Source: an uncultured Bacteroidales bacterium
GTDB taxonomy: Bacteria; Bacteroidota; Bacteroidia; Bacteroidales; UBA3663
DNA length: 64,000 nucleotides
Assembly (NCBI GenBank): GCA_902770595.1
Contig: CACXTQ010000004.1
Span: 3,445-67,444, forward strand
Direction of reading: 5' to 3'
The position numbers were made by a program, and so were the translations under genes. Each line of letters opens with the position of its first letter. Within the stretch, counting starts at the first letter, position 1. Shown one piece after another: positions 2,307 to 38,792 of the stretch. The notes under the pieces are model-generated. The model was given only the letters and a program-made list of their open reading frames with translations, was not told the DNA's origin and did no database searches.

Positions 2307-2339
2307 AATCAAAATACCCCAAAACACAGTTTATTTCAA

Positions 2340-2381
2340 GTCACAAAAAAAATCTGTGTAAATCTGTGGAATCTGTGTGAC
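2340..2381. repeat. Truncated third copy (right arm only) of the CACAGATTT-word hairpin
   Basis: aaaatctgtgtaaatctgtggaatctgtgtgac matches the right arms at 1788-1820 and 2274-2306. Only GTCACA is left of the left arm. Confidence 0.7.
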
Positions 2382-2440
2382 TTAAATATTCTCTGTGCGA
2401 AAAAAGCAGATGCAGAATCTGTGAGACAAAAGACCTGCCA

Positions 2441-3883
2441 TCAGTGAGGATATGCAAGGAAAGGCAAAGTGATATCGACAAGGTGCTTGTACCCTTCGAC
2501 ATTCGGATGCAGCTTGTCCTTTTGGTAGTAGGGGCCATAGTTGCTGTGCGTGAAGCCCGAGCGACGGAAGAGGTCGAGGTAAGGGATATCGTGCGCCTTG
2601 GCCCACTCGATCTGGGCATCGACGTAGTGGCGCAGGCCGATGCTGTCGGCGTAGAGCGTATCGTAGCCCGCTGCTCCCTTGTTGAAGATAGGGAGCGTGG
2701 TGAACAGAAGAATCTCGGCATCGGGGTTCTTCTGTTTCAGTTTCTGATAGCTGTAGTTCATTCCGCCCAGCATAGTCGTGAGCTTCGCGGTGTCGAAGCC
2801 GTCGGCCTCGGTGTAGTCGCTGAGCGTGCCGATGGTGGCGCGACCCTTCGAGAAGTCGTTGCTGGGCGACCAGAGCAGGTAGATGTCGTGCGGCTCATCG
2901 CGTCGGCAGCAGCGATCCACAGCATACTGCACGCCCCTCTCATGCGTCGCCACGCTGTAACCAGCCCCATTGATGCCGTGGCCGAATAACGTGAGCTGCA
3001 GCTTCTCCTGCCAATAGAACTTGCAGCTGTCCGACTCCTCAATGTTGCTGAACGAACCTCCGAAGATACCAAGGCTCTTGCCAAAGTTGGGCGAGAGGGT
3101 GTAGTACAGATCCGAATTGATGTCAATCAAATAACCTGAATATCGACTGATTGTACCCTGTTGTACGACAACATCGGTCACTGTCTTGGTAGCCAAAGCT
3201 TCATACTCTGCGTTATTTGCCCTCAAAAACAGGTTACCCACATTACCCGAAGACGGAACAAACGTAAGCAAATCGAAGTTTTGTGTCTTATGTTCCTCCG
3301 AAGTGATCTGTTGTGAAAGTTGTAACGTATTCCCTGTGCAGATTCCAGTCATCGTCGCAAGATCAAATCCATGACAAAGCCCTGAAGCCTGCAACTCGAT
3401 CGTAGCCACCTGCGGTGGCCATTTGTCGAGGACTTCGACCTTCACATCAGCCACAACCAAGGGGAGTATGATATTTTCTTCCAAAGAGGTTTTGCCCACA
3501 TCGATACTCATGCGGCAGGCCCAAACGCGACCAAGTCCTGTAGAATCATCATGCCATGTCAACTGTAGGTGCTCGGCATCAAATGATGACCATTTGTTCT
3601 CAGCGGCCACGAAATAGAATTCATGCACTCCAAAGGCCAACATCATCACGAAAGGATCAAACGAGGACTTCTCCACGCATTTTACTTCATTGCCGAATTT
3701 ATCAATAATCAATAGATGAGCAGGTTCTGAAAGTCCACGAGTGAACGGAATCTGCTCAAATTCATTCACAGACAACTGGAATCTCAGTTCAACCTCTGAT
3801 TCAATCATTTCATCAGTATGCTGTTGGCACGCTGAAAACAAAAACAAGAGCCCTAACAATGCAGTAGAATAACTTTTCACCAT
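2441..3883 (-). CDS. Lipoprotein with a fimbrillin-like N-terminal region fused to a C-terminal SGNH/GDSL-type hydrolase domain
   Basis: Lipobox LFLFSAC at the N-terminus. The C-terminal third (LWSPSNDF...LFTTLP...DKLHPN) resembles SGNH hydrolases. The N-terminal assignment is weak. Confidence 0.6.
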   Translation of the reverse strand: MVKSYSTALLGLLFLFSACQQHTDEMIESEVELRFQLSVNEFEQIPFTRGLSEPAHLLIIDKFGNEVKCVEKSSFDPFVMMLAFGVHEFYFVAAENKWSSFDAEHLQLTWHDDSTGLGRVWACRMSIDVGKTSLEENIILPLVVADVKVEVLDKWPPQVATIELQASGLCHGFDLATMTGICTGNTLQLSQQITSEEHKTQNFDLLTFVPSSGNVGNLFLRANNAEYEALATKTVTDVVVQQGTISRYSGYLIDINSDLYYTLSPNFGKSLGIFGGSFSNIEESDSCKFYWQEKLQLTLFGHGINGAGYSVATHERGVQYAVDRCCRRDEPHDIYLLWSPSNDFSKGRATIGTLSDYTEADGFDTAKLTTMLGGMNYSYQKLKQKNPDAEILLFTTLPIFNKGAAGYDTLYADSIGLRHYVDAQIEWAKAHDIPYLDLFRRSGFTHSNYGPYYQKDKLHPNVEGYKHLVDITLPFLAYPH

Positions 3884-3927
3884 CTTGTTTTGTGGTTTCA
3901 GAACTGCTCATCTAAATTATATAGTAC

Positions 3928-5409
3928 TTACAAAGTCTGCCATGCCGACCCATTCCATATTTCAGCATTTCCCGTAGAAATGTTGAAATAAACAAAACCA
4001 GCACCGACATAGTTACCCAAGCCCGAAGGCCGATTGGCTGTTGTTCCTCGTTTAATCCAATCGTATTCAACCAATATATCAGTAAAACAACCAGTTGCAT
4101 TGTAAGCTGTAATCAACTGATCAGAAAGAATCTGTTTGACTTCGGTGTGGCCCGAAATAGTTTTGTCTCTATCATAGCCTCTGTAATACACATTATGTAA
4201 ACGGACAGTATTCTTAGACCCATTTGAACAATTAATCTTTATCAGATTGCTCTCATTAAACCATCCGTTATTAGTAGTCCAACCTGTACAAACCCAATTT
4301 GAGATGTATAAACCATCGATTTCGACTTTATCACAGTTTAAGAAGAACAGAATTCTCTTATCATTAACCGAAGTCGTCATAAAAGGCATATTAAACCAAC
4401 AATTTTTAACAGTCATATTTGTACCGCCATCAAAATATATACCTTTTGCGGCCTCTTCTCCTGCACAATTAATCAATGAAAGGGAATTACACCACTTGAT
4501 ATAATAGATGTACCAATTACTACCACCATCAGTAACAGAACTATCTGGTTTCCAAGTGTCAGCACAACAATTCATTAAAGTGGAATAGGTCAAAGTTTCA
4601 AGGTAATAAGCATTCTGCTTGTAACTCTTTACGAAACAGTTAGCCATCGTAACCGAAGTTCCACCTTTGATCGAAAAACCTGTAAAAACGCCAGTCGCAG
4701 TACAACGCTCAATCTTAGACAGGAATGTATCCAAATAATAGCCAATGGAGCAACCTGTTGAAGCCAATCCCTCCAACACAAGTCTATAATGCTGCCCGTT
4801 TGTTGAGAATCCATAATCCATTACATTCTCTGTTCCATTCTTTACAGAAAAATTCCTAATAGTGACGAAATCACTCGCAATACTAACAATAGTATTCATT
4901 GTGGTATTTGTCGGACTTGCCAACAATTGAGGTTTGCCTGAATGATCATTAGATTGACGCGTTCCTTCGAACACCTTTCTGCTTGAGATAGAAAGAGTTG
5001 ATTTAATCAGGTACGTTTTATTCAACAAGATGACTCTCTCAATAGGAGAAGACAAAGCTTTTTGAATAGCAGTAGTATCATTCGTAGAACCATTGCCTAC
5101 TGCACCCCACCATTCAGCATAGCAACTGTCCACATTCCATGTGCCTGCTAAAGTAACGCCACTAAAGATTTGCCTTGGTGGTGATACTATAGTAGATCTA
5201 TTTCCTGTCAAAGTGTAGTTGCCAATGATTTTTCCCCCTTCGAAGATTATCATTGTGTTGGATGCCATAGTGACATTAGCGGTGAGCGTAATGTCAGAGT
5301 CAAGGTGATAGACACCACCCGATTGCTGAACTGCAGACAAAAAGTCTGCCAAAGTGCTTCTAACCTGTTCACTAACAAGCTGAGCAACCTCATTTGTGTT
5401 TTGTTCCAT
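3928..5409 (-). CDS. Right-handed beta-helix protein, pectate-lyase-3/tailspike-like, no signal peptide
   Basis: AEWWGAVGNGSTNDTTAIQKAL is the typical opening of the pectate_lyase_3 / phage tailspike fold. The C-terminus GTTANRP...YFNISTGNAEIWNGSAWQ resembles phage tail-fibre tips. The region is AT-rich. Confidence 0.6.
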   Translation of the reverse strand: MEQNTNEVAQLVSEQVRSTLADFLSAVQQSGGVYHLDSDITLTANVTMASNTMIIFEGGKIIGNYTLTGNRSTIVSPPRQIFSGVTLAGTWNVDSCYAEWWGAVGNGSTNDTTAIQKALSSPIERVILLNKTYLIKSTLSISSRKVFEGTRQSNDHSGKPQLLASPTNTTMNTIVSIASDFVTIRNFSVKNGTENVMDYGFSTNGQHYRLVLEGLASTGCSIGYYLDTFLSKIERCTATGVFTGFSIKGGTSVTMANCFVKSYKQNAYYLETLTYSTLMNCCADTWKPDSSVTDGGSNWYIYYIKWCNSLSLINCAGEEAAKGIYFDGGTNMTVKNCWFNMPFMTTSVNDKRILFFLNCDKVEIDGLYISNWVCTGWTTNNGWFNESNLIKINCSNGSKNTVRLHNVYYRGYDRDKTISGHTEVKQILSDQLITAYNATGCFTDILVEYDWIKRGTTANRPSGLGNYVGAGFVYFNISTGNAEIWNGSAWQTL

Positions 5410-5440
5410 AGTTATATATTTTTTGTTAAAAGTATTCAGT

Positions 5441-7840
5441 TCACCAAGGAACTGTAAGAATTTTCTTGCCTTTGTGAATCATTACCTGTCCCTCAGCAGG
5501 ATGCTGGAGTCGATGACCGAACAAGTCATAGAAGGAAGCATCATCGCAATCCTCAACAACGGCCTCCTCTATGCCAGCTCCAGGAGCAACTACAGGCAAA
5601 AGGGTCAGCGAGACGATATTGTTGCCCAGCAGATCCGGTCGTAAGGACATTTCGGGCTGATGAAAGGTGCGAGTCTCAAAGCCTCCATTGGAGTAACCGA
5701 CTACCAGCTGCCAATGGAAATTACTGCTGCCACTATTCACACGGAAAGCCCTTCCACTGAAACAATATCCATCGAAATTGCCCTCTGTCAAACCGATGTC
5801 GTTCACTCTTACCGGCACATTGTAAACCGAGCCATCATGATATGCCATCGTAGAGACCGTAAGCGGGATAACATTCCCCAAATTGAATCGCGAAGCAAGC
5901 TGCTGGCTCTGGATCAGCGGGCGCTGCCGACAGAATGGGATAAGCCGATTCTCGATACGATTGGCAAAATCCTGATAGGTGGCACCTTCGTTCATGAAGG
6001 CGAATGTCGCTTCGATCTCACCATCAATCGCTGCACGCATTTTGTTAATCATTGCAACTGTGACCGAGGGTTTGCAGAAATCCCCCAGATAGACCATCAT
6101 GCGGTCGATGAACGGGTTGCGGAACTCCGGCATATCGAACAGCCGCGCAAAAATGCGTCGGTGTTCGGGCTTTTCATCGTAATTGCTCTCACTTCCCGTC
6201 ATTGTGATGAAATTAAGCCAGTTCCAGTTGTCTCCTCCTCCGGCAAGATCGTCAAGGTCCTTCAGCAGAGGACGGAAAACCTTCTGGGTTTCGCTTCTGT
6301 CGTACCACAGATAGACGTTGGTATGAGCAAAGGTGCGATTGGAGGAATATGCCTCGCAGCAAAGATAATTGAGAAGCAGCGACATGTCGAAGTATCGGGC
6401 GAAGTCTTCATATCTGGAATACGGGTCATCTATCAGCTGACGAACATCGTCGTAGTCTGCCACACTGCTATAAAAAGCTTCGACTTCCGAAATGGAATCT
6501 TCCTCCAGACCCAGATTGTTCGATGCCCAAGTATTGTTGGCACGCTCACGAATGTCCATGATTCCATTGTACTTGCCGTCGATATAGACAATGCACGGCC
6601 GATAGTCGAGATACTGCAAGCTGTCGATATGATTGGCAAAAAGCAACTGTACAAAGGCGTCGTCAATACGTGAGTCGAGGCAGCGCGTGCCACTATTGCG
6701 AAGACAGAAAGTCTTGGTCTTCTTGACGAATGGCTTATGCGGGAAGAATGTCGAAGATTTGAAGCGTTTCTTCTGCCAACGCTTGTTGGTATAAAGGTTC
6801 ATCGCCTTCTGATTTCTTCGCAACGACCCTGCACCATGCATGCCCGCCTCGCCTATCTGATTGATGAGTGCCGTGTCAGGCTCCGATTGTTCGAAGAACT
6901 CGATGTTGAACGGGCGGCGCCAACCCTTGAAGCAATTGCCATCAAAATCATCGCCCACCATCATGCCTATCTCCTCGTCGTAAAGGTATCTGCTGTCGGT
7001 CGATAGCGAGAACACCGGCAGTTGCGTCGTGCGTGGATGGAAGATGTAGGAATGCGTAACAGGCAGGGAAGTCAGTGCGAAGTCAGAAATCAACCGGGCA
7101 CGGACCACCGTTGTTTTCGTTATCTGTATCCTACACGGTTCATCCTTGGCATAGCTTGCTGACACTTTGGTAGGAGCCGAGCCATCGAGGGTGACATACA
7201 GGCGCGTGTCGGAAGGAAGAGCGGCATCAGGAAACGCAATCGATAGTAAGAATGACTCGCCCACCGTGAGCAGTCGCCCTGCATGACTGAATATCGGATT
7301 AGGCAAGAGAAAGTCTGAGCCACGGCTTTCGTTCGGTTCGCCAGGCGTTGGCGTGACTTCAAATTGCCATTCGTCAGCCCCATCAGCCACTCGGCCCCAA
7401 GCGATATTGGGGGCAGGCATCTCTTCGTATGCCACACTATCGATCAATACGCCGTCCGCATTCCAAAGATAGAGGGCTCCCGCCTTGGTAGATTCTAACC
7501 GGAAGTCAGTGTGTTCCCATCCGTCATCCTTCTTGTCGCAATAGAAGAGGATATGCCCACCTGCAGGGAGTTCGCGAGTATGGTACAGTTTGTAAGCTTT
7601 GGCATAGTCGCTACTGGTGCCAATGCTCCAGCCTTTCATGTTGATTTTCTTTCCTGTAGTGTTATAGACTTCGAACCAGGAGTCGGGGAAATCCTTTCGA
7701 TAGAATAAGGCATCGATGTTGCTCTGCATCAGTTCGTTGATAATCACTTGATGCGTCTGGGCGACAAGAGATCCACCTGAACTGACGAGTAGCATCAGAC
7801 ATGCGACAATCAGACTTCTTTGAAATAATGCTCTTTCCAT
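5441..7840 (-). CDS. Secreted CotH kinase family protein with N-terminal lamin-tail domain (LTD) and T9SS CTD-like tail
   Basis: Signal peptide, then VIINELMQSN...WFEVYN (LTD), then a central CotH-like region (CLRNSGTRCLDSRIDDAF...). The C-terminus is FYDLFGHRL...GKKILTVPW. Confidence 0.75.
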   Translation of the reverse strand: MERALFQRSLIVACLMLLVSSGGSLVAQTHQVIINELMQSNIDALFYRKDFPDSWFEVYNTTGKKINMKGWSIGTSSDYAKAYKLYHTRELPAGGHILFYCDKKDDGWEHTDFRLESTKAGALYLWNADGVLIDSVAYEEMPAPNIAWGRVADGADEWQFEVTPTPGEPNESRGSDFLLPNPIFSHAGRLLTVGESFLLSIAFPDAALPSDTRLYVTLDGSAPTKVSASYAKDEPCRIQITKTTVVRARLISDFALTSLPVTHSYIFHPRTTQLPVFSLSTDSRYLYDEEIGMMVGDDFDGNCFKGWRRPFNIEFFEQSEPDTALINQIGEAGMHGAGSLRRNQKAMNLYTNKRWQKKRFKSSTFFPHKPFVKKTKTFCLRNSGTRCLDSRIDDAFVQLLFANHIDSLQYLDYRPCIVYIDGKYNGIMDIRERANNTWASNNLGLEEDSISEVEAFYSSVADYDDVRQLIDDPYSRYEDFARYFDMSLLLNYLCCEAYSSNRTFAHTNVYLWYDRSETQKVFRPLLKDLDDLAGGGDNWNWLNFITMTGSESNYDEKPEHRRIFARLFDMPEFRNPFIDRMMVYLGDFCKPSVTVAMINKMRAAIDGEIEATFAFMNEGATYQDFANRIENRLIPFCRQRPLIQSQQLASRFNLGNVIPLTVSTMAYHDGSVYNVPVRVNDIGLTEGNFDGYCFSGRAFRVNSGSSNFHWQLVVGYSNGGFETRTFHQPEMSLRPDLLGNNIVSLTLLPVVAPGAGIEEAVVEDCDDASFYDLFGHRLQHPAEGQVMIHKGKKILTVPW

Positions 7841-7846
7841 ATTCCC

Positions 7847-10219
7847 TTATTTTCTGATAATCTTCCGGAATGTTCCATCGGGATCACGCACCAGTCGTAT
7901 GTTCCCCACCCCTGCATTGCTGCAAGGCGTACCATAGATGGTATAGTAGAGGGCAGGAGTTTTGTTCTCATCATTCGCTACACACTCTATGCCTTCGCCC
8001 GGGTCGATCGAAATGGTCGTGAAGACGACAGACTCGCAAGTGCCCACAGTTTGGGCCAAACGCATGCTGACTGATGGCTGCTCATATCGGAAGGTCTTCG
8101 TGTTGCCATTCAAATAGGTCACAGTCATTGCCCAGCCCGCTGCAGGGTTTCGGCTGTCGAGCCTCAGCTTGCGCCCCATCCAAGTGTAGCCGTCAAATCG
8201 GCTTTGGGTGAGCCCGACATTGTTGACCAGAATCGGATTCCCCTGCGGATAGATGGTCATCGGAACAACATCGCCCAACGAGAAATATTGTGCAAATTGA
8301 TTGTAAGCACGCAGGGGGCGCTGTTCGCAATAGGGTATCAGCCGTTCGTTGATAGTTTTGTCAAAGTCTGCATAGCTTACATCTTCGGTCATAGCAGCAA
8401 AGGTTGCTGCCACTTCGCTGTCGATTTCATCGCGCATTTGGCGGATGAGCGGCAACGTCACATCGGGGCGAAGGAAATCGCCGAGATAGGTACCCATGCG
8501 GTCGATGAAGGCCTCGCAGAACTCATCCATCATCAGCAATTTCTGTATCAGCCGATGTTTGATAGGCTGCAATGCCCATTTCCCTTCATTCCCCGTCACC
8601 ATAAGCCAATTGAGATAGTCGAAACCCAATTGGGAATTGGAGAAATAATCAAGGTCTTTCAGCACGAAATGCCACTTGCCCTGCTTCTTTCTCCACATAT
8701 ATACATTATTATGGGGGAAATCCTCATTCGTTGCAAAAGTCTCGCAGCAGAGATAGTCGATAAACTGGCTCATCTCCATGATGGTTTCGAAATCGGCAAA
8801 TGTCGAAGATTCGTCATCGATGAGCTGGAGCATATCGGCGTATGCTGGCGCATCGCTGTAGAAACTTTCCACAACATCCACCTCCTCCGTGATTCCATAA
8901 TTAGATTCCAGATAGTCCTCGTCAATCTTCTCTCTTAGTCCAAAGACGCCCTTGTATTCTCCATTGATATAACCGATGACGGGCGAATAGGCTATCCATT
9001 CGAGCGAATCCTTCCATCGGGCGAAGAGCCTTTGCGCCAGTGCATCCTCAAACCGTGTGTCGATACACCGATTGCCGCCATTGCGCAGACGAAATGACTT
9101 GACCCGGGTGACTTCCGGTTTGTCTGCGGGCCACAGTTGTGCCTTGAAGCGCTTCTTGCCAAAACGCTTGTTGGCATACAGCTTGAGTGACTTCTGCGAA
9201 TAGATACGCGATCCCAAACCACCCACAGCCGTTTCGCCAAGCTGATTGATAATGGCATCATCGCCCTGCTTTTCGAAATATTCGATGTTGACGGGACGAC
9301 GCCAATCCTTGTAGCAATTGCCCGTGCCCAAGGGCTGGCCGCCCAGCAGGATGCCGTGCTCTTCACTATAGAAATAAGCGCTGTCAGTCACCAGACTCAC
9401 GATGGGCAGCTGTAGCTCGCGGGGATGGAAGATGTAGGAGTGGGTGACAGCGCGCGAAGGCAAGGCATGAGTCGACAGGAGTTTGGCGCGGACGGTGATC
9501 GTCCGGTCGATCGGCAGACGGAACTCAGTCGCAGAAGGGGATTCGAGTATAGGTTCCTCTCCATTCGTGGTCATATAGATGCGGGTGTCGGATGGTAATT
9601 CATATCCCTCCGGCATCGTTATCTGTAGCTCCGCAGGTCCCGTCATGATACGCCCTGACAGACTGAACACGGGCGAAGGCAGTAACGTAGCCGAACCGCC
9701 GCCTTCGTTGGCAGCTCCGGGTGTCGGCTTCAGCTCATATTGCCATTCCGATTCGTCTTCGGTACAGCGACCGTATGCAATGTTCGGCGCAGGCATCTCG
9801 GGATGTCTAAGGCTGTCGATAATCTCCCCGTCCGGACTGAACAAGTAAATGCTTCCTCCTGAAGTAGATTCCAAACGAAAGTCAGTGTGAGTATCCTGCC
9901 CTTTCTTGTCGCAATAAATCAGTCGGTAGCCGTGGGCAGCCACATGATGGCTTTTGGGGAAAAGATACGAGGACTCGAAATCGGGTGCCAATCCTATCCT
10001 ATAGCCCTGGATGTTGATCGCCTTTCCTGTCGGATTGTAAAGCTCCACCCAAGAATCGGGGAAGTCGTGCTCCACCATCAGCTGGTCGATGTTCGACTGC
10101 ATAATCTCGTTGATGACGAGGTGTCCCGATTCATTCGAACCGAGAACGTCAGCCGAGGCAGTCGCTGGCAGCACACCAAGCGCAAGGCTTGCCGACAGGA
10201 GAGAAAGACGTTTCAACAT
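7847..10219 (-). CDS. Secreted CotH kinase family protein with LTD and T9SS CTD-like tail (paralog 2)
   Basis: Same architecture as 5441-7840: LVINEIMQSN...WVELYN, RLRNGGNRCIDTRFEDAL, KWHFVLKDLDYF. It starts 6 nt after the downstream paralog. Confidence 0.75.
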   Translation of the reverse strand: MLKRLSLLSASLALGVLPATASADVLGSNESGHLVINEIMQSNIDQLMVEHDFPDSWVELYNPTGKAINIQGYRIGLAPDFESSYLFPKSHHVAAHGYRLIYCDKKGQDTHTDFRLESTSGGSIYLFSPDGEIIDSLRHPEMPAPNIAYGRCTEDESEWQYELKPTPGAANEGGGSATLLPSPVFSLSGRIMTGPAELQITMPEGYELPSDTRIYMTTNGEEPILESPSATEFRLPIDRTITVRAKLLSTHALPSRAVTHSYIFHPRELQLPIVSLVTDSAYFYSEEHGILLGGQPLGTGNCYKDWRRPVNIEYFEKQGDDAIINQLGETAVGGLGSRIYSQKSLKLYANKRFGKKRFKAQLWPADKPEVTRVKSFRLRNGGNRCIDTRFEDALAQRLFARWKDSLEWIAYSPVIGYINGEYKGVFGLREKIDEDYLESNYGITEEVDVVESFYSDAPAYADMLQLIDDESSTFADFETIMEMSQFIDYLCCETFATNEDFPHNNVYMWRKKQGKWHFVLKDLDYFSNSQLGFDYLNWLMVTGNEGKWALQPIKHRLIQKLLMMDEFCEAFIDRMGTYLGDFLRPDVTLPLIRQMRDEIDSEVAATFAAMTEDVSYADFDKTINERLIPYCEQRPLRAYNQFAQYFSLGDVVPMTIYPQGNPILVNNVGLTQSRFDGYTWMGRKLRLDSRNPAAGWAMTVTYLNGNTKTFRYEQPSVSMRLAQTVGTCESVVFTTISIDPGEGIECVANDENKTPALYYTIYGTPCSNAGVGNIRLVRDPDGTFRKIIRK

Positions 10220-10223
10220 ATCA

Positions 10224-10272
10224 TTGTCCGTTTTTCCAATGCAAAAATAGGCGGTTTTGTCCGTTTTTCCAA
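10224..10272. repeat. Two copies of a 16-bp direct repeat TTGTCCGTTTTTCCAA (10224-10239 and 10257-10272)
   Basis: Read directly. The copies are spaced 33 bp start-to-start and bracket the -7 box at 10242-10249. Confidence 0.85.
10242..10249 (-). promoter_or_regulatory. Bacteroidota -7 promoter box (TATTTTTG on minus strand)
   Basis: Matches the TAnnTTTG consensus, 22 nt upstream of the ATG at 10219. This is the only sizeable gap (97 nt) inside the CotH gene train. Confidence 0.45.
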
Positions 10273-10316
10273 CATTTGCAGTGCAATCGCACCTGATTTT
10301 TAAAAATAATTAACGA

Positions 10317-11879
10317 CTAATAGAGGAAGAATCTTTCGGCCACGCTTTCCGAAAAGCCCACAGGAGGTTCGGGCGATTCGGTGATACTCCAGCTGGCGGG
10401 GTCGAAATCGGGGGAAGACAGGAGCGACTGCGTGCTCGGGAAGTCGTGGTCGAAGCGGAAGGTGCAGATCGGGATGCCCTGCGGGCCGATGAGCGAATAG
10501 TAGCTTCCGCTGCGACAATCGTCGAGGGCGGGTCCCAGATAATAGGGCTGCTGGCTGGAGCCGAGGGTGCGCTGCTCGGGGTGCTGTGCACCGCCGAAGG
10601 TGACAACAGTGCCGCTGCGGAGCAGAATACGACGGGTGTCATCGCAGTCAAGCGCTTCCTCCGAAGGGCCTTGTGTCGTGTAGGCGAACAGATTGCCTCC
10701 ATCGATGACGATGGCACCCGACTGGGCGTAATCGCTGTCGATAGCATCATCGCCCGTGCTGAAGCAGACTGTGGTTCCGCCTGCAAAAGTGATGGGCCCG
10801 GCGCTGTTCAGGCAGTCATCGTAACATTGCATAAAGATACGTCCGCCACTGATGTCGATGCACTCATCAGCCTTAATGCCCTGCGATGCATTGTCGGCAG
10901 TCTCAATGCTGATGTTACCGCCCTGGATGCAGACTGAGCTCTGCGTTCGTATGGCGGGACAGCCTTCCGTCAGTGTATGTCCGTCGGAGCTGGGGGTGTA
11001 GAGCGTCTTGCCCGTGCAGTGAATGTCAAGTTCAAGGGGGGTATCTTGATTTGAGCCAATAGTGACAGGTCCCTCGCACACGATTCCCTTGCCCGCCTCG
11101 CGTGTGGCATGAATCGACAATCGCCCCCCTCTCATTTCGAATGCCTCTTCTGCCATAATTGCGATGGGCGAGCAGATGACACCTATTTCCTTAATGCCTC
11201 GACTACTGTTGTCAATCGTAAGGGTGCCGCCTTCAATGTCAAGTGCACCGGCATGAATCGAATGCCCGACCTTTCCTTCAGTTAGGACGGTGAGGGTACC
11301 TGAACCCGAGAGCGTGAGTTGACCAGTGGCATAAATAGCAGCTTCGGGCGAATCACGATCCAGTTCGCTTGCTGTATGCCTGAGCGAGTTTTCGCCTTCG
11401 ATGAGGATGGTGTCAGCCGATGCCTTCGCCAGCCTGATGATTGATGGTCGGCTGCTGGAGAGCTCCAGTCCATTGAGATGAAGGCGAATGGGCTGGTCGG
11501 CTTCGACGAGAATCGACGCTTCGGATGCTTGTCCTTCAATTTCGATGTCCGTCACGAAGTTGCAGTGGCTCACCACCTTGACATGATTCCCGCTGCACTC
11601 GATCGTCAGTCCGTCGAAATAATAGGGATTGACCGTTGATACAAGGTCAGGGTCGAAACGTATGGATGCTCGCGACTGGAGTTGGGGAAAAGAGATGCTA
11701 TCAATGGTGGAAATAGGCACATAATACCCAGAAGTCTCAGCACGATGAACGACGAGCTGCTGTTCGGTTGCATCGAAGGTAATACTATCGATGCTGCTGA
11801 TGTCCGTCTGGATGCACTGCGCACCCAAATGGAGCTGAAAGGCTGTAGCCGCAAGAGGGAGGAGCAGAGGGAGGGTCAT
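10317..11879 (-). CDS. Secreted carbohydrate-binding beta-helix protein, Cthe_2159-like
   Basis: Signal peptide, then repetitive G-x-I/L beta-helix-like segments (ITFAGGTTVCFSTGDDAIDSDY..GAIVIDGGNLFAYT). It has a 4-nt ATGA overlap with the upstream CotH gene. The family call is from memory. Confidence 0.55.
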   Translation of the reverse strand: MTLPLLLPLAATAFQLHLGAQCIQTDISSIDSITFDATEQQLVVHRAETSGYYVPISTIDSISFPQLQSRASIRFDPDLVSTVNPYYFDGLTIECSGNHVKVVSHCNFVTDIEIEGQASEASILVEADQPIRLHLNGLELSSSRPSIIRLAKASADTILIEGENSLRHTASELDRDSPEAAIYATGQLTLSGSGTLTVLTEGKVGHSIHAGALDIEGGTLTIDNSSRGIKEIGVICSPIAIMAEEAFEMRGGRLSIHATREAGKGIVCEGPVTIGSNQDTPLELDIHCTGKTLYTPSSDGHTLTEGCPAIRTQSSVCIQGGNISIETADNASQGIKADECIDISGGRIFMQCYDDCLNSAGPITFAGGTTVCFSTGDDAIDSDYAQSGAIVIDGGNLFAYTTQGPSEEALDCDDTRRILLRSGTVVTFGGAQHPEQRTLGSSQQPYYLGPALDDCRSGSYYSLIGPQGIPICTFRFDHDFPSTQSLLSSPDFDPASWSITESPEPPVGFSESVAERFFLY

Positions 11880-14275
11880 GGGCAGAATGTTTTGCGTGTA
11901 TTTCCATTCGAATCACGTATGATGCTGAGGCCTCTTGATGTGGACTGGATTGGGCGACCAACGAGGTCAAAGCATTGTTGCGGAGCCGCATGACCGATCG
12001 TGATGTTTTCAATGCCCAATTGGTCAATAGGCGTGGGATCGAAGCGAATGCTTGAGAAACCTGTGCCGTAGTCGGCGAGGCAGAACGAGAGCGAAGAGCG
12101 ACGTCGTTCGAGGGTCTGCGTACGGCCCAATGCATCGGTGAGTGTGATGCGCCACCCCAGCTCGTCATTGCCGGTGTCGAGGCGAACGGAACGACTTGAA
12201 AACAGAGCGCCGTCGAAGTCTCCTTCGGTAAGGCGGATGCCATTGACCTTAATGCAGAGTGACTCCCAGTTCAACCCATCGTCATCACTATAAAGCGTGC
12301 TGATGCGCATTGGCACGACTTCGCCCAGTCCGTAATAGGCCGCCAGATGCCGATAGTGTATCATCGGGCGCTGCTCCAGATAAGGGATGAGCATACGGTC
12401 GATGCGATCGGCAAAATCAGCGTAGGTTACACCCTCGTCGAGCACTTCGAAGGTAGCCGGAATCTCGTCTTCAATCTCGGCACGCATTTGCTGAACCATG
12501 GGTACGGTAACAGAGGGTTTGCAGAAGTCGCCCAAATAGGTCTGCATGCGGTCGAGAAAAGCATCCTGGAACTCCTTCATACCGAACAGGACAGCGTAGA
12601 GGCGACGACAATTGTAGTTCGAACCCCATGTGCCCTCTGAACCTTGCAGGGTGATGAAGTTGTACCAGTTGGTAGTAGGAGCTGTGGAGGCCAATTCATC
12701 AAGGTCCTTCAAAACAGGATGAATGCGGCAGTCGGGATCGTCGGGACGAAGTGTGTCGCCATGCACCCACATGAAGACGTTGGCTGATGGGAAGAGCGTA
12801 TTGGTGGCAAAGGCCTGGCAGCACGTGTAGTCGAGCAGCAAGGGCATGTCGAAGTAACGGCAAAGTGCCTCGTAGGTTGGGTTGTCGCTCCATATCAGGT
12901 CGCGGATAGGCTGGTAAATAGGGTCGGCACTGTCCATATCCTCGATTTCAGTTACTTCGTCCTCATCGATACCATAGTTATTGTCTGCAAAAGTGTTGTT
13001 GGCGCGTTCGCGCAGGTCGTACAGGCCACGGTAACGTCCATTTATATAGACAATGACGGGGCGATAGTCGAGGTATTCGAGTGTGTCGATGTGTTCTGCA
13101 AAGAGGAGCTGCACGAAAGCATCTTCAAACCGCGAGTCAGCACAGCGGCTACCGCCATTACGCAGGCAGAAGGTCTTGGTTTGAGTAATGTGCGGCTTAT
13201 GGGGCCAGAAACGCGATGAGTCGAAGCGTTTGCGCTGCCATCGTTTGCCGGTGTAGAGGTTCATGGCCTTCTGATTGTGGAGCATGGACCCTGCGCCGTG
13301 CATGCCAGCTTCGCCCAACTGATTGAGGATGGCTCGGTCTGGTTGCTCCTGCTCGTACATCTCGAAGTGGATGGGGCGACGCCAGCCCTTGTAGCAGTTG
13401 GCGTGATAGTCCGAGCCAATCAGCATGCCGAGGCTGTCGCCCCAGAGCAGCAGGCTGTCGCACGTGAGCGAGAAGACGGGCAGCCGGGTGGCACGCGGAT
13501 GGAGGATGTAGCTGTGAGTGGCCGGCACATTGGTGAGGCCCTGTGCGGAAAGGAGCCGTGCACGTACGACCGTAGTGCGATTGAGGGTGATGCGGAAGGG
13601 ATTGTCGCGCGTGTAGCCGGGCGAATCGGTGGTAGGGAACGAACCATCGGTAGTGACGTAGAGCCGCGTGTCGGCAGGCAGGTCGGACAAATCAGGGATG
13701 GATACGGTGAGTTCCTGCCCCGCATGGTCGAGCAAACGGCCCGTGAGGCTGAATGTGGGGGCGGGCATCAGATAATGGGTGAAGACACCCTGGTTGGGCG
13801 TGCCCGGCGTAGGGGTCACTTCGTAGTCCCACTCTTCGCCACCATCAACAGTCCGCCCATAGGCCACGCCGGGAGCAGGCTGCTGGCGATGGCGCAGCGA
13901 ATCGACTATCGTGCCGCTCGCGTCCCACAGATAGATGGTGCATTCGTGGGCATCGAGGTGGAAGTCGGTGTGCTGGTAGCCGTTATCGACCTTGTCGCAA
14001 TAGACCAGCAGGTGACTGGAAGCGCCAATGTGCATCGAGTGGCTGAACTCCCAGGCGGTGTCGAAATTGCGCTCCAGACCTATGCGCCAGCTCTGGATGT
14101 TGGTAGCCTTCCTGCTGTCATTATAAAGCTCGACCCACGAGTCGGGGAAATCGCCCTTATACATGATGCAATTGACGTTGCTCTGCATGATCTCGTTGAT
14201 CACGACGTTTTGCGCCCCGACTTGCAGAGAGGAGGCGGAGAGAAGAGCAACGAGGATTGTGAGAAGGCGTTTCAT
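11876..14275 (-). CDS. Secreted CotH kinase family protein with LTD and T9SS CTD-like tail (paralog 3)
   Basis: VVINEIMQSN...WVELYN. Long stretches are near-identical in protein to 5441-7840 (YKGWRRP..., KTFCLRNGGSRCADSRFEDAFVQLLFA). The tail is CFDLVGRPI...NTRKTFCP. Confidence 0.75.
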   Translation of the reverse strand: MKRLLTILVALLSASSLQVGAQNVVINEIMQSNVNCIMYKGDFPDSWVELYNDSRKATNIQSWRIGLERNFDTAWEFSHSMHIGASSHLLVYCDKVDNGYQHTDFHLDAHECTIYLWDASGTIVDSLRHRQQPAPGVAYGRTVDGGEEWDYEVTPTPGTPNQGVFTHYLMPAPTFSLTGRLLDHAGQELTVSIPDLSDLPADTRLYVTTDGSFPTTDSPGYTRDNPFRITLNRTTVVRARLLSAQGLTNVPATHSYILHPRATRLPVFSLTCDSLLLWGDSLGMLIGSDYHANCYKGWRRPIHFEMYEQEQPDRAILNQLGEAGMHGAGSMLHNQKAMNLYTGKRWQRKRFDSSRFWPHKPHITQTKTFCLRNGGSRCADSRFEDAFVQLLFAEHIDTLEYLDYRPVIVYINGRYRGLYDLRERANNTFADNNYGIDEDEVTEIEDMDSADPIYQPIRDLIWSDNPTYEALCRYFDMPLLLDYTCCQAFATNTLFPSANVFMWVHGDTLRPDDPDCRIHPVLKDLDELASTAPTTNWYNFITLQGSEGTWGSNYNCRRLYAVLFGMKEFQDAFLDRMQTYLGDFCKPSVTVPMVQQMRAEIEDEIPATFEVLDEGVTYADFADRIDRMLIPYLEQRPMIHYRHLAAYYGLGEVVPMRISTLYSDDDGLNWESLCIKVNGIRLTEGDFDGALFSSRSVRLDTGNDELGWRITLTDALGRTQTLERRRSSLSFCLADYGTGFSSIRFDPTPIDQLGIENITIGHAAPQQCFDLVGRPIQSTSRGLSIIRDSNGNTRKTFCP

Positions 14276-14334
14276 AAGAAATTATTTACTACTCAAGTTT
14301 CACATTAGTTCAACTTGCCGGATTTGAACGGGAG

Positions 14335-16158
14335 TCATCTGATCATGACGACACGCGAGGTGCCGTCGTCGTAGCGCACGATGTTGATGCCACGAGCAAG
14401 GCTGGTGCGCGGCGTGCCATCGGGAGCAAGCACGGCAATGGCACGAGCCGAGGCAGGGGCTGCTACCTCGTCGAGACCCTCGGGTGGAGTGTAGCCGAAG
14501 TAGGAGTCTTCGAGCGCGATACGTTCGTCGATCCATGCGTCCAGACGCTCGAGGCTGTCGGTGTAGCCGAGCTGCTGATAAGGACGGACGCCCTGGGTGA
14601 CAGAGGAGGCAATCCAGACTCGGCGAGCCAGACGACAGATGTCGCCCGGCTGATAGGTGACATCCTCTTTCCATTCGGGCAGGTGGTTGAAGTGGTCGGT
14701 CCAGTCGTCGGAGGCTTCCCATCCGGGGTTGGTGATAGTCTGACTGATGCACAGGGCGTTGGGCCAGCGTGCCCACTCCATGTCGTAGAGGTCGCCGCCG
14801 ATGCGGTCATGCCAGTCGTGGATGAGTACTGAGATGTTCTTTGGGCTGAAGACACCGCAGTCGCGCAGCTCGGCGTAGCGCGCCCGTATTTCATCCTTAT
14901 AGTAGTCCCAGAACCACGTGGCGATACCACGCCTCGAGATCTTGAAGCGATAGTCGCTGTCGCTATACGAGAATCGCGCCGGAAAGACAAGCGTGCCTTC
15001 ATGATAGTTGCCGAAAGTACAGTCAAGGTCATAGGGGGCTACGTGCCACGTTTCTCCACCATCGTAGGTAAGCCATTGCCAGTTTTTGGCAAAGCCGTCG
15101 TAGTTGCTTATCACCGTGCTGAACACGAGATAATTGACCATCGACGTGACATCGAAGTGGCGGGCAATGGCCGCACGAATCTCCTCGGCCGAGGCTCCGC
15201 TTTGCTTCAGGTTGGCCACTTCACCTACCCTTCGTGTCAGGGCGATAACGGCCTGTTTGACATAGGCCGAACGTTGCTTGGCCTGGCGCACCTCCTGCGA
15301 ATCGCCGGGCCTCGAATAGTAGGGCGAACTGCTGTCGATGAGTTCGTCGCCTTCGTCATAGGCATTGCCCTCCATGTCGTAAAGCCCCTTGGGATTACGC
15401 ACCTCGAACGCACTCCACTTCAGGTTATCGAACCAGAAGTTCGTCTCGTTCATGTTGCCGTCGAGGTGGATGTGGAGGGCATTGTGCTTCTCCTGAGCCA
15501 TGTTGCGGCGATGCTTGGCGAGCTGCCAGGTGCAGATGCCCCAGAACTCGCCGTTGAGGAACATCATGCAGGGGAAGCCGTCGGGATAGCAGCGTGCATT
15601 CTTGTGTCCCTCCACGCCTGCACGCTTCCAGATGCGGTTGCTCGAAGCAGGCATCTGCTGCTCCATCTGGTCGAAGAGCTGGTAGCCTACGATACCGACA
15701 CCACGCAGCCAGTCGGTGTAGAAAGCCTTGAGGTGGAAATGGTCCTGTTTTACCCATCCGTCAAAATCCACAGTGGGCACCGTTTCGCCCTGCCAGTCAT
15801 CGTCGATGAGCTGCAGCTTGACATTGCGTTTGGGGAAAGAGGTGGAGGTGGCACCCTGCACATTGACGATGGCCCGCTTCATGAAGTAATTGCCCATAGA
15901 ATCGAAATATTCGATGGTATCACGGAAGTTGGAGGTGTTGGTGTAAGGGATTCCGTACTTTGAGCGAAGGTTGATGTAGGCCAAGCGGGGCTGAGGCAGA
16001 TTGATGTCCGACTCATGGCTCCAGTCGTGGGTCTGACCGAGAACGAATCCATACAAGCGGATGGTCTGCTCATAGTTGCTGGTCTGTGCGTGGCTCGGAA
16101 AGAGAAGACTGAGAAGCAGTGAGGAGAGTAAGAGGAATTTCAGCATCGTTAGTTGCAA
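14335..16158 (-). CDS. Secreted CotH kinase family protein (shorter form without LTD) with T9SS CTD-like tail
   Basis: Signal peptide. The canonical CotH-like motif WHVAPYDLDCTFGN is present. The C-terminus is VLAPDGTPR...GINIVRYDDGTSRVVMIR. Confidence 0.75.
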   Translation of the reverse strand: MQLTMLKFLLLSSLLLSLLFPSHAQTSNYEQTIRLYGFVLGQTHDWSHESDINLPQPRLAYINLRSKYGIPYTNTSNFRDTIEYFDSMGNYFMKRAIVNVQGATSTSFPKRNVKLQLIDDDWQGETVPTVDFDGWVKQDHFHLKAFYTDWLRGVGIVGYQLFDQMEQQMPASSNRIWKRAGVEGHKNARCYPDGFPCMMFLNGEFWGICTWQLAKHRRNMAQEKHNALHIHLDGNMNETNFWFDNLKWSAFEVRNPKGLYDMEGNAYDEGDELIDSSSPYYSRPGDSQEVRQAKQRSAYVKQAVIALTRRVGEVANLKQSGASAEEIRAAIARHFDVTSMVNYLVFSTVISNYDGFAKNWQWLTYDGGETWHVAPYDLDCTFGNYHEGTLVFPARFSYSDSDYRFKISRRGIATWFWDYYKDEIRARYAELRDCGVFSPKNISVLIHDWHDRIGGDLYDMEWARWPNALCISQTITNPGWEASDDWTDHFNHLPEWKEDVTYQPGDICRLARRVWIASSVTQGVRPYQQLGYTDSLERLDAWIDERIALEDSYFGYTPPEGLDEVAAPASARAIAVLAPDGTPRTSLARGINIVRYDDGTSRVVMIR

Positions 16159-16268
16159 TGAGTTCGAATAAAACAGACGTTTTCTCTCCTAAAACCATAA
16201 AGCCAAACACCCGGAGCTCGGCTCCAGGCATCTGGCTTTATAGGGTTGACGAAACGCAGAGCGCTTGC

Positions 16269-33424: not shown

Positions 33425-33429
33425 GGGCA

Positions 33430-38790: not shown

Positions 38791-38792
38791 CA

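What the first reader, a model, noticed from the sequence alone, without database searches (positions are those of the whole stretch)
5441..16158. Gene train of four secreted CotH-kinase-family paralogs plus a Cthe_2159-type beta-helix protein, all apparently T9SS cargo
Seen: five co-directional minus-strand ORFs with gaps of 6, 97 and 59 nt and one ATGA overlap. Three ~800-aa paralogs share the architecture signal peptide, lamin-tail domain (INE[IL]MQSN...W[FV]E[LV]YN), CotH-like core. A fourth, 607-aa member lacks the LTD. All four end in tails (e.g. FYDLFGHRL...GKKILTVPW, CFDLVGRPI...RKTFCP) that resemble the clear T9SS CTDs of the C10 peptidase and the PPC protein in this window. The porPKLMN core lies 17 kb away. 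The short member keeps a canonical-looking PYDLDCTFG motif, whereas the LTD paralogs have LKDLD[DEY] at the equivalent place. Established: CotH is an atypical protein kinase fold (Bacillus spore coat), and Cthe_2159-like proteins are beta-helix polysaccharide binders. Inference: this is a battery of surface-attached or extracellular kinase-fold proteins with a glycan-binding partner. I know of no described function for such proteins in gut Bacteroidota. This is my top candidate for an undescribed system.
Basis: partly seen in the sequence, partly recalled or inferred. Interest (0 to 1): 0.75.

Follow-up and report, generated by a model that had tools for sequence, protein, structure and literature searches.

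The report
Exported CotH kinase-fold glycan module
A rumen Prevotellaceae bacterium has a row of genes for exported kinase-like (CotH) proteins, a sugar-binding beta-helix protein and an esterase; in other bacteria these are fused into one protein or sit inside capsule-synthesis loci, so they probably act together on a polysaccharide at the cell surface, by a chemistry that is still unknown.

Summary
The five ORFs, their spacing and their domains are real: CotH in four proteins, LTD in three, Cthe_2159 in one. AlphaFold models of B and E match Bacillus cereus CotH (5JD9).

The interpretation needs three corrections.

1. The DxD metal motif is kept in all four paralogs. What differs is the catalytic-loop Asp (B. 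subtilis D228). B and E keep it; A has Thr and D has Leu.
2. No protein in the window, including the C10 peptidase and the PPC protein, matches a T9SS CTD model. The four CotH proteins do share a ~35-residue C-terminal tail. Distant orthologues carry TIGR04183-positive CTDs at the same position. The Cthe_2159 protein has no tail.
3. The unit extends beyond the stated coordinates. The pair D+C (ATGA overlap) is the split form of LTD-CotH-Cthe_2159(-SGNH) fusion proteins. These fusions are flanked by E-type CotH genes, and the SGNH part corresponds to gene G (2441-3883).

Half (11 of 22) of the nearest outgroup homologues lie inside capsule/EPS loci. Others end glycoside-hydrolase operons.

Best reading: a surface, glycan-directed CotH module made of two predicted active members and two pseudo-members. 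Its chemistry is unknown. The families are known and large, but this module is undescribed in the papers I could search.

The parts
14335..16158 (-). E: short CotH protein (607 aa from TTG; 603 aa from the ATG at 16146). Signal peptide, CotH core with all catalytic residues, short C-terminal tail.
   Evidence: Pfam CotH 2e-22. AF2 pLDDT 91.3, top PDB fold hit 5jd9 at E 1e-12. N352/D354/N359 and D377/D379 are kept and invariant in 40 of 40 E-type homologues. Tail HMM 4.3e-8.
11876..14275 (-). D: LTD-CotH paralog with Leu494 in place of the catalytic-loop Asp (pseudo-type). Signal peptide and short tail. Overlaps C by ATGA.
   Evidence: Pfam LTD 4.5e-12, CotH 2.4e-15, CHB_HEX_C_1 7e-6. L494 at the catalytic position, D524/D526 kept. 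It is the closest window paralog (56-58% identity) to the CotH part of the LTD-CotH-Cthe_2159 fusions.
10317..11879 (-). C: Cthe_2159-type beta-helix protein with a signal peptide and no C-terminal tail.
   Evidence: Pfam PF14262 1.1e-27. PDB 4peu 3.8e-5. Aligns over ~500 aa (39-40% identity) to the middle part of the fusion proteins of L002 and L016. No tail hit.
7847..10219 (-). B: LTD-CotH paralog with the catalytic Asp kept (D500), plus D522/D524. Signal peptide and short tail.
   Evidence: Pfam. AF2 pLDDT 87.7; fold hits 5jd9 at 3e-12 and lamin Ig domain 3jt0. Alignment A1. Tail HMM 1.5e-14.
5441..7840 (-). A: LTD-CotH paralog with Thr503 at the catalytic-loop position (second pseudo-type). 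47% identical to D. Short tail of the 'GKKI' form.
   Evidence: Pfam. T503, D528/D530. Pairwise identities. Tail HMM 1.1e-6.
2441..3883 (-). G: SGNH/GDSL hydrolase lipoprotein and terminal member of the module.
   Evidence: Pfam Lipase_GDSL_2 4.6e-11. Lipoprotein-type signal ...LFLFSAC. Present at the end of the cluster in all related loci L009-L012, L015 and L021. 45% identical to the C-terminal SGNH domain of the L016 fusion protein. Resembles the SGNH domain of phage tail fibres, phrog_5240 1.2e-16.
3928..5409 (-). F: 493-aa protein with no signal peptide and only a weak beta-helix signal. An optional passenger, not a core member.
   Evidence: Only sub-threshold Pfam Beta_helix. No PHROG or PDB match. 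Present in only 2 of 7 related loci; L010 and L011 carry an extra LTD-CotH (747-748 aa) in its place. Local GC is 0.42 against 0.50-0.57 for A-E.
16198..16240 (-). 20-bp-stem hairpin followed by a T-run, between the SPOR gene and E. Likely a terminator marking the upstream boundary of the unit.
10220..10316 (-). C-B intergenic region. It holds TATTTTTG (10249-10242), which fits the Bacteroidetes -7 box TAnnTTTG known to me from memory, and a 16-nt direct repeat TTGGAAAAACGGACAA (10272-10257 and 10239-10224). A possible internal promoter or regulatory site for B-A.
   Evidence: Read directly from the sequence. Function not tested.

Best explanation
SHOWN
- The locus encodes four signal-peptide-bearing CotH-fold proteins. 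E is a short form. B, A and D are LTD-CotH forms.
- It also encodes a Cthe_2159 beta-helix protein (C) and an SGNH lipoprotein (G).
- E and B keep the complete CotH catalytic set. A and D have lost the catalytic-loop Asp but keep the metal and nucleotide residues.
- D+C, and elsewhere +G, are the split equivalent of single LTD-CotH-Cthe_2159(-SGNH) polypeptides. In other Bacteroidales these fusions are flanked by E-type genes.
- The conserved core is therefore one active short CotH, a pseudo-CotH/beta-helix scaffold and an esterase. B and A are extra paralogs in a site whose gene content varies between related genomes.
- A, B, D and E end in a ~35-residue three-strand tail behind a flexible linker.

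INFERRED
- The tail is a shortened T9SS type A sorting signal. If so, the CotH proteins are exported by the porKLMN machinery encoded in the window and displayed on or released from the cell surface.
- C has no tail and may travel or act bound to D.
- The target is a polysaccharide. My preferred version is the cell's own capsule or exopolysaccharide, handled after export. The beta-helix and Ig-like domains would hold the polymer, G would remove or move acyl groups, and E and B would carry out a phosphoryl or nucleotidyl transfer. A and D would act as non-catalytic binders.
- The donor substrate outside the cytoplasm is unknown.
For: Identity
- Pfam hits above gathering scores.
- AF2 models with pLDDT 91 (E) and 88 (B); top PDB fold hits 5jd9/5jda, TM-score on the target 0.64 and 0.71.

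Catalytic residues
- E aligns NYDG...N and PYDLD to the B. cereus CotH motifs NFDG...N and PWDYD.
- B. subtilis D228Q and D251A mutants are inactive (PMC7821199).
- In 215 LTD-CotH family members the D228-equivalent is kept in 193. R379, R429, N505, D522 and D524 are invariant.
- The 22 exceptions are the orthologues of A and D, the Cthe_2159 fusions, and three others (P0019, P0049, L027).
- In 40 of 40 E-type homologues the catalytic residues are invariant.

Fusion evidence
- The L016 protein (1493 aa) is LTD+CotH+Cthe_2159+GDSL by Pfam.
- The L002/P0020 protein (1278 aa) is LTD+CotH+Cthe_2159.
- Their parts match D at 56-58%, C at 39-40% and G at 45%. Both are flanked by E orthologues at 52-56%.
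- P0125 is an E-type CotH fused to GDSL. DUF4886 is fused or adjacent in P0006, P0007, P0225 and L085.

Glycan context
- LTD-CotH homologues lie inside Wzx/Wzy/GT/acetyltransferase loci in 4 of 4 Pfam-annotated contigs.
- The same holds for 11 of 22 GTDB loci at 40-46% identity.
- Glycosyltransferases are the commonest Pfam families among 128 non-redundant neighbours.
- An E-type homologue sits beside a GT cluster.
- In Muribaculaceae and Barnesiella the gene ends a GH92-GH30-GH30-GH3 operon.
- The SGNH domain of G resembles phage tail-fibre esterase domains.
- Cthe_2159 binds cellulose and polygalacturonate (PMC6712302).

Export
- All 10 C-termini tested from distant orthologues have TIGR04183 as best hit; 4 are above the 23-bit cut-off.
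- The short tail occupies the same position. It is replaced by a dockerin or a TM anchor in other homologues.
- The tail is also the exact C-terminus of three secreted Bacteroidota CAZymes in PDB: 8bbl, 4kca and 7jvi.
- porPKLMN are in the window.
Against: - No T9SS CTD model hits any protein of this locus.
- A 35-residue tail is much shorter than the 70-100-residue CTDs known to me as functional (from memory).
- This particular locus has no glycosyltransferase, Wzx or Wzy gene nearby. The capsule link rests on homologues that are 40-46% identical, and only half of those show it.
- ATP is not expected in the periplasm or outside the cell, so a kinase reaction there lacks an obvious donor.
- No VTC-type polyphosphate polymerase, the partner of CotH in Firmicutes, turned up among the window or locus proteins I annotated.
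- The only biochemically characterised CotH phosphorylates proteins, not glycans.
Confidence: 0.45

Rival explanations
1. The module targets dietary or foreign polysaccharide (plant cell wall, fungal wall), not the cell's own capsule. It would be a Bacteroidota counterpart of the dockerin-borne CotH and Cthe_2159 proteins of cellulosomes, helping the cell attach to or loosen fibre in the rumen.
For: - The source is a cattle rumen metagenome, and the closest genomes are rumen and omasum MAGs.
- C. thermocellum cellulosomes contain CseP (CotH) and Cthe_0239 (LTD-LTD-Fn3-CotH) (PMC6083626).
- Among the fungi compared, the CotH and Cthe_2159 Pfam domains occur only in anaerobic gut fungi (PMC6712302).
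- Some homologues carry dockerins (P0032, P0115, P0157).
- LTD-CotH ends GH92-GH30-GH30-GH3 operons in Muribaculaceae.
- The same tail is found on a rumen arabinanase and on a capybara CBM89-GH10 xylanase.
- GH2 and GH9 genes lie elsewhere in the window.
Against: - The nearest outgroup homologues are embedded in biosynthetic loci, not degradative ones.
- There is no SusC/SusD or GH gene next to this cluster.
- The role of cellulosomal CotH is itself unknown (PMC12484212).
Confidence: 0.25
2. This is a battery of extracellular or surface protein kinases that phosphorylate proteins (the cell's own surface proteins, other microbes or the host), with C as a glycan-binding partner.
For: - The only characterised CotH is a Ser kinase of spore-coat proteins and is related to the secretory kinase Fam20C (PMC7821199).
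- B and E keep all catalytic residues.
- The fold match to 5jd9/5jda is strong.
Against: - Two of the four paralogs lack the catalytic Asp.
- Every recurrent partner, whether fused or adjacent, is carbohydrate-related: Cthe_2159, SGNH/DUF4886, CHB_HEX_C_1, GT/Wzx loci and GH operons.
- There is no Ser-rich substrate gene like cotB/cotG in the cluster.
- There is no evident ATP source outside the cell.
Confidence: 0.12
3. These are non-enzymatic surface adhesins or variable surface antigens. The CotH fold would serve as a binding scaffold, as proposed for the Mucorales CotH invasins, and the paralog train would supply surface diversity.
For: - Gene content at this chromosomal site varies between close relatives, from 2 to 5 CotH genes.
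- Two members are pseudo-enzymes.
- The proteins contain Ig-like LTD and beta-sandwich domains.
- Fungal CotH proteins are described as invasins (titles and abstracts).
Against: - The catalytic Asp is kept in 193 of 215 LTD-CotH proteins and in 40 of 40 E-type proteins.
- The metal and nucleotide residues are invariant even in the pseudo-types. This argues for a conserved ligand-binding or catalytic site under selection.
Confidence: 0.13

Closest known systems
Bacillus CotH spore-coat protein kinase (PDB 5JD9/5JDA; Pfam PF08757)
   Same: - Same fold: Foldseek E ~1e-12, TM-score on the target 0.64-0.71.
- Same catalytic-loop and DxD motifs in B and E.
   Different: - The proteins here have signal peptides, extra domains (LTD, CHB_HEX_C-like, C-terminal beta-sandwich) and an export-type tail.
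- Two paralogs lack the catalytic Asp.
- The organism forms no spores, and there are no CotB/CotG-like substrates.
- The genomic partners are carbohydrate-related.
- Sequence identity is only ~13-14% in the structural alignment.
Cellulosomal CotH proteins of Clostridium (Acetivibrio) thermocellum (CseP/Cthe_0044; Cthe_0239 = LTD-LTD-Fn3-CotH-dockerin) and of anaerobic gut fungi
   Same: - Extracellular CotH, sometimes with an LTD, in fibre-degrading gut or rumen microbes.
- Co-occurrence with Cthe_2159-type beta-helix proteins.
- Function unknown.
   Different: - Those are anchored by dockerin-cohesin in Gram-positive bacteria and fungi. Here there is a short T9SS-like tail in a Gram-negative.
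- Here there is also a defined gene module with a pseudo-CotH/beta-helix/SGNH unit.
CotH genes in exopolysaccharide or virulence loci of Firmicutes (Streptococcus intermedius pel operon SIR_1594 with a VTC-like polyP polymerase; C. perfringens NELoc-2)
   Same: A secreted CotH encoded together with polysaccharide synthesis or modification genes. This parallels the capsule-locus embedding of the Bacteroidales homologues.
   Different: - No VTC/polyP polymerase or 4-TM partner turned up among the proteins annotated here.
- Domain architecture and export route differ.
T9SS type A cargo (TIGR04183 CTD), e.g. multi-modular rumen cellulases of 'Ca. Paraporphyromonas polyenzymogenes'
   Same: - N-terminal signal peptide plus a C-terminal beta-strand tail of the form ...Y-D-x-x-G-R...G-[IV]-Y/N-I...K-x-x-x-K.
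- T9SS genes are present.
- Orthologues carry true TIGR04183 CTDs.
   Different: - The tail here is about half the length and fails the HMM.
- Its function as a sorting signal is untested.
Cthe_2159 (PDB 4PEU/4PHB) and CBM89 (PDB 7JVI): beta-helix polysaccharide binders
   Same: - C matches PF14262 and 4peu.
- Non-catalytic beta-helix carbohydrate binders are established in gut Bacteroidales.
   Different: - C is translationally coupled, and elsewhere covalently fused, to a pseudo-CotH.
- Its ligand is unknown.
- Close orthologues occur only in one rumen clade.

Membership tests
CotH family (Pfam PF08757) | Profile match above the gathering score | tested here: met
   A 60.4, B 86.3, D 57.3 and E 80.6 bits against a cut-off of 23.8.
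CotH family (Pfam PF08757) | Atypical kinase fold as in 5JD9 | tested here: met
   E and B models have 5jd9/5jda as top hits (E 1e-12 and 3e-12, prob 1.0, TMt 0.64 and 0.71). A and D were not modelled, but they are 42-47% identical to B or to each other.
CotH family, as active kinases | Catalytic-loop Asp (B. subtilis D228) | tested here: inconclusive
   Present in B (D500) and E (D354). Absent in A (T503) and D (L494). The criterion is met for two paralogs and not met for two.
CotH family, as active kinases | Metal-binding Asp (B. subtilis D251) in the DxD motif | tested here: met
   A D528, B D522, D D524, E D377. Invariant in 215 of 215 family members.
CotH family, as active kinases | Phosphotransfer activity with ATP | not testable with these tools
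   Needs purified protein.
Lamin tail domain (PF00932) | Profile match above the gathering score, and Ig-like fold | tested here: met
   A 46.9, B 48.9 and D 46.7 bits against a cut-off of 34.3. The B model matches lamin Ig domains 3jt0 and 3gef with prob 1.0. E has no LTD.
Cthe_2159 family (PF14262) | Profile match above the gathering score; similarity to the solved protein | tested here: met
   C scores 97.4 bits against a cut-off of 25.8. PDB 4peu_A 3.8e-5. Carbohydrate binding itself was not tested.
T9SS type A cargo | C-terminal domain matching TIGR04183 / PF18962 | tested here: not met
   No hit for A-E, neither whole proteins at E<=0.1 nor the last 110 aa at E<=10.
T9SS type A cargo | Sec signal peptide plus a conserved extreme C-terminal beta-strand tail; orthologues with a bona fide CTD | tested here: met
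   The tail is shared by A, B, D and E, by 94 of 120 LTD-CotH homologues (a loose motif match) and by 101 of 120 E-type homologues. All 10 distant orthologues tested have TIGR04183 as best hit, 4 above the cut-off. Not met for C, F or G.
T9SS type A cargo | T9SS machinery in the same genome | tested here: met
   PorP/SprF, PorK (FGE-sulfatase domain), GldL, GldM and GldN at 33361-40151.
T9SS type A cargo | T9SS-dependent secretion | not testable with these tools
   Needs por mutants and proteomics.
Capsule/EPS biosynthesis locus component | Encoded within a cluster of Wzx/Wzy, glycosyltransferase and sugar-modifying genes | tested here: not met
   In this window the flanks are SPOR, QueC, thioesterase, acyl-CoA ligase-like genes and CvfB. 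The criterion is met only for homologues: 4 of 4 annotated contigs and 11 of 22 GTDB loci at 40-46% identity.
SGNH/GDSL hydrolase (G) | Profile match above the gathering score | tested here: met
   PF13472 scores 44.0 bits against a cut-off of 32.9.

The most novel reading that the evidence does not exclude
E and B are extracellular glycan-directed phosphotransferases, using an unconventional donor or scavenged nucleotide. They would decorate capsule or other polysaccharide after export. The pseudo-CotH/beta-helix pair D-C would hold the polymer and G would edit its acyl groups. This would give the first function for the large class of exported, non-spore CotH proteins, including the cellulosomal ones. 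It would also define a shortened T9SS sorting tail that current HMMs miss.
Probability: 0.18. Interest if true: 0.8.

Novelty: new variant of a known kind. Interest (0 to 1): 0.5.

Why it matters
Exported CotH-fold proteins are very numerous. There are at least 2933 LTD-CotH hits and 3694 E-type cluster representatives. They are found in cellulosomes, anaerobic fungi, phages and gut Bacteroidales, and outside the Bacillus spore coat no function is known.

This locus, read together with its fused relatives, gives a concrete and testable unit: one active CotH, a pseudo-CotH/beta-helix scaffold and an SGNH esterase. It also gives a likely class of substrate, namely polysaccharide.

The work also shows that a short C-terminal tail common on secreted rumen and gut Bacteroidota enzymes, including three PDB entries, escapes the standard T9SS CTD models. 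Surveys of T9SS cargo based on TIGR04183 alone may therefore undercount cargo in Prevotellaceae.

Tried and rejected
- T9SS CTD models (NCBIfam and Pfam) on whole proteins and on the last 110 residues of A-E, the C10 peptidase and the PPC protein gave no hit. I therefore could not file the proteins as TIGR04183 cargo and used orthologue tails instead.
- A direct PDB sequence search was nearly blind. E hit 5jd9 only at E=0.32, B hit nothing, and profile A1 hit only the tail of 8bbl. Fold search was needed.
- A CBM5/12-like insert in E was suggested by weak Foldseek hits (9fbp_A prob 0.91 over 51 columns; 2d49). Pfam did not confirm it, so I left it as a hint.
- F could not be identified. There was no Pfam hit above threshold and no PHROG or PDB match.
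- I looked for the Firmicute CotH partner, a VTC polyphosphate polymerase. None turned up among the proteins I annotated in the window or in the loci.
- The pooled Pfam count of neighbours showed glycosyltransferases as the top families but only at ~10% of neighbours. The capsule link is therefore not universal. It is concentrated in the 40-46% identity band.
- Sigma-70 promoter matches inside the genes were disregarded, because Bacteroidota use a different promoter type.
- The Nguyen 2016 PNAS paper on CotH was not held. Residue roles were taken from PMC7821199.
- The literature search for PDB code 8BBL returned only unrelated papers.

Full report
OBSERVATION

- A 5441-7840 (799 aa)
- B 7847-10219 (790 aa)
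- C 10317-11879 (520 aa)
- D 11876-14275 (799 aa)
- E 14335-16158 (607 aa from TTG; the source assembly aa from the ATG at 16146)

The gaps are 6, 97 and 59 nt, and D and C overlap by ATGA.

Pfam gives CotH in A, B, D and E, LTD in A, B and D, a weak CHB_HEX_C_1 in A and D, and Cthe_2159 in C. All main hits are above the gathering scores. porP, porK, porL, porM and porN are confirmed at 33361-40151.

The window is a scaffold of a cattle rumen metagenome assembly (STEW19-1, ERZ28613784). It is about 96% identical at the protein level to rumen and omasum MAGs labelled Prevotellaceae or Bacteroidales.

FOLD AND CATALYTIC RESIDUES

AlphaFold models built with alignments are confident: E has pLDDT 91.3 and B has 87.7. 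Both have B. cereus CotH (5jd9/5jda) as their only strong PDB match. B also matches lamin Ig domains.

The sequence alignment of E to 5jd9 pairs NYDG..N with NFDG..N and PYDLD with PWDYD. The first Asp of each pair corresponds to B. subtilis D228 and D251. Mutation of either inactivates the kinase (PMC7821199).

It is invariant in 215 of 215 family members.

The real difference lies in the catalytic loop:
- B has N-E-D500
- E has N-Y-D354
- A has N-R-T503
- D has N-T-L494

Across 215 LTD-CotH proteins the Asp is kept in 193. The 22 exceptions are the orthologues of A and D, the proteins fused to Cthe_2159, and three others (P0019, P0049, L027). In 40 of 40 E-type homologues the catalytic residues are invariant.

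The train therefore holds two predicted active enzymes (E, B) and two pseudo-enzymes (A, D). The pseudo-enzymes still keep the metal and nucleotide residues.

WHAT BELONGS TOGETHER

In GTDB species representatives the full E-D-C-B-A order occurs only in the closest relatives (L009, L010, L011). It always lies at the same chromosomal site, between QueC/SPOR and an SGNH gene, CvfB and thioredoxin.

Gene content at that site varies:
- L012 and L015 have only two LTD-CotH genes.
- L021 has E plus two LTD-CotH genes.
- L010 and L011 have an extra 747-748-aa LTD-CotH where this window has F.

The SGNH lipoprotein G (2441-3883) ends the cluster in every case.

Two unrelated Bacteroidales contigs carry fusion proteins:
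- L002/P0020 (1278 aa) is LTD-CotH-Cthe_2159.
- L016 (1493 aa) is LTD-CotH-Cthe_2159-GDSL by Pfam.

The N-terminal parts of these fusions are closest to D (56-58%), then A (53%), then B (44-45%). Their middle parts align to almost all of C (39-40%). The L016 C-terminus aligns to the SGNH domain of G (45%). Both fusions are flanked by E orthologues (52-56%).

An E-type protein fused to GDSL also exists (P0125). DUF4886 is fused or adjacent in several others.

The ATGA-coupled pair D+C is thus the split form of a single polypeptide. The conserved core is E + D-C + G. B (active type) and A (pseudo type, 47% identical to D) are additional paralogs.

F has no signal peptide, no tail, no recognisable family and a lower GC content. 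It occurs in only 2 of 7 related loci, so it is probably a passenger.

A 20-bp-stem hairpin after the SPOR gene marks the upstream end of the unit.

THE TAIL AND T9SS

The tail is nevertheless real:
- An HMM built from the last 42 residues of database homologues finds B, D, E and A at their extreme C-termini (1.5e-14 to 1.1e-6). The C10 peptidase C-terminus comes next (0.018). The PPC protein is not found.
- The tail is present in 94 of 120 LTD-CotH homologues (a loose motif match) and in 101 of 120 E-type homologues.
- In the models it forms three short strands behind a low-confidence linker.
- In other homologues the same position is taken by a dockerin, by a TM anchor, or by a longer tail of the ...GIYIL...K-I-I-L-K type.
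- All ten longer tails tested have TIGR04183 as best hit, and four are above the curated cut-off.
- A profile of the short tail also finds the exact C-termini of three PDB entries. These are the GH20 enzyme 8bbl, the rumen arabinanase 4kca and the capybara CBM89-GH10 protein 7jvi (PMC8810776).

I read the short tail as a shortened type A sorting signal that is common in this lineage and missed by the HMMs. This is an inference. C, F and G do not have the tail. G has a lipoprotein signal.

CONTEXT OF RELATIVES

The LTD-CotH family is large. There were at least 2933 hits, and 524 stretches in GTDB representatives. NCBI names its members 'CotH kinase family protein'.

Polysaccharide biosynthesis loci:
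- On four independent Pfam-annotated contigs the homologue lies inside a locus containing Wzx, Wzy/EpsG, GT1/GT2/GT4, acetyltransferases, LicD, choline kinase, IspD, a TagF-like glycerophosphotransferase and a pyruvyl transferase.
- I labelled neighbours by iterative search from those annotated genes. 11 of 22 GTDB loci at 40-46% identity have at least two such genes within five genes. Only 3 of 36 loci at 35-39% identity do.
- Glycosyltransferases are the commonest Pfam families among 128 non-redundant neighbours, at about 10%.

Other contexts:
- In Muribaculaceae and Barnesiella the gene ends a GH92-GH30-GH30-GH3 operon.
- E-type homologues were found beside a GT cluster, beside DUF4886, or beside two-component and phosphate-transport genes.

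The window's own cluster has no biosynthetic or degradative carbohydrate genes directly next to it.

MECHANISM

Shown: identity, fold, residue states, the split/fusion relation, the shared tail and the carbohydrate-related company of the family.

Inferred: export through T9SS and a polysaccharide target. I prefer the cell's own capsule or EPS, because the nearest outgroup genes are in biosynthetic loci and the SGNH domain of G resembles phage tail-fibre esterase domains. A dietary or fungal polysaccharide target is the main rival. It is favoured by the rumen setting, the cellulosomal precedents and the GH operons.

The weakest point of any enzymatic model is the phosphoryl donor outside the cytoplasm. 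The VTC-type polyphosphate polymerase that accompanies CotH in Firmicutes did not turn up among the proteins I annotated here.

NOVELTY

All the domains belong to known, large families, and the genes are routinely annotated. No paper in the searchable library describes exported CotH function in Bacteroidota, the E + pseudo-CotH-Cthe_2159 + SGNH module, or the short tail.

I rate it a new variant of a known kind, namely exported CotH proteins associated with polysaccharide systems. Its interest is moderate. The main value is that it turns an old open question, what extracellular CotH proteins do, into a defined set of experiments.

Noticed in passing
window 10220-10316 (minus strand): The C-B intergenic region holds a 16-nt direct repeat, TTGGAAAAACGGACAA, at 10272-10257 and 10239-10224. 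Between the copies lies TATTTTTG (10249-10242), 23 nt upstream of the B start. Some database homologues have this repeat translated into their called N-termini (MEKRTKSTDFMLEKRTK in P0004 and P0025), so the repeat is conserved in relatives. It may be an internal promoter or operator.
   Followed up: partly
window 16198-16240 (minus strand): A hairpin with a very long stem (20 pairs, 9 of them G-C) followed by a T-run lies between the SPOR-domain gene and E. It is probably the terminator of the SPOR gene.
   Followed up: no
window 3928-5409 (minus strand): F is a 493-aa protein with no signal peptide and only a sub-threshold beta-helix signal. It has no PHROG or PDB match. Its region has GC ~0.42 against 0.50-0.57 for the neighbouring genes. 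It is present in only 2 of 7 related loci.
   Followed up: partly
PDB 8bbl_A 864-901, 4kca_A 656-682, 7jvi_A 819-842; window 29253-32342 (C10 peptidase C-terminus): The short tail (..Y-D/N-L-x-G-R/K..G-x-N/Y-I..K-K-I..) is a generic C-terminal tag of secreted gut and rumen Bacteroidota enzymes. TIGR04183 and PF18962 do not detect it. T9SS cargo lists built with those models may undercount cargo in Prevotellaceae.
   Followed up: partly
L037, L038, L040, L043, L044, L053 (Muribaculaceae/Barnesiella MAGs), about 2000-12400 in each: A conserved operon GH92 - GH30 - GH30 - GH3(PA14) - LTD-CotH, with a canonical T9SS CTD on the CotH protein. From memory, this GH set would suit alpha-mannan and beta-1,6-glucan, i.e. 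yeast wall.
   Followed up: partly
L027 7799-12385: A 1528-aa protein made of two complete LTD-CotH units in tandem, each ~42% identical to B. It sits after LicD, choline kinase, NTP-transferase, IspD, GT2 and GT1 genes.
   Followed up: no
L086 and L087 (contigs with E-type homologues P0185 and P0216): The short CotH genes lie next to two-component systems. In L086 the gene also lies near a Na/Pi cotransporter with a PhoU domain. This is a possible phosphate-related regulation lead.
   Followed up: no
window 14335-16158, E residues ~470-525 (603-aa numbering): A conserved Trp/Tyr-rich insert after the kinase core gave weak Foldseek matches to chitin-binding domains (9fbp_A, 2d49). Pfam did not confirm it.
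   Followed up: partly
window 29253-32342 and 43632-47738: The first gene is a C10 peptidase with an N-terminal Spi/I69 inhibitor domain and BspA-type LRRs. The second is a 1368-aa PPC/DUF7619 protein. Both end in GKK-type tails, and neither matches a T9SS CTD model.
   Followed up: partly
window 10317-11879 (C): Close orthologues of C (78-94% identity) occur only in one rumen clade. The next hit is at 49%, and after that identity drops to 25-35%. The beta-helix partner therefore evolves much faster than the CotH genes.
   Followed up: no
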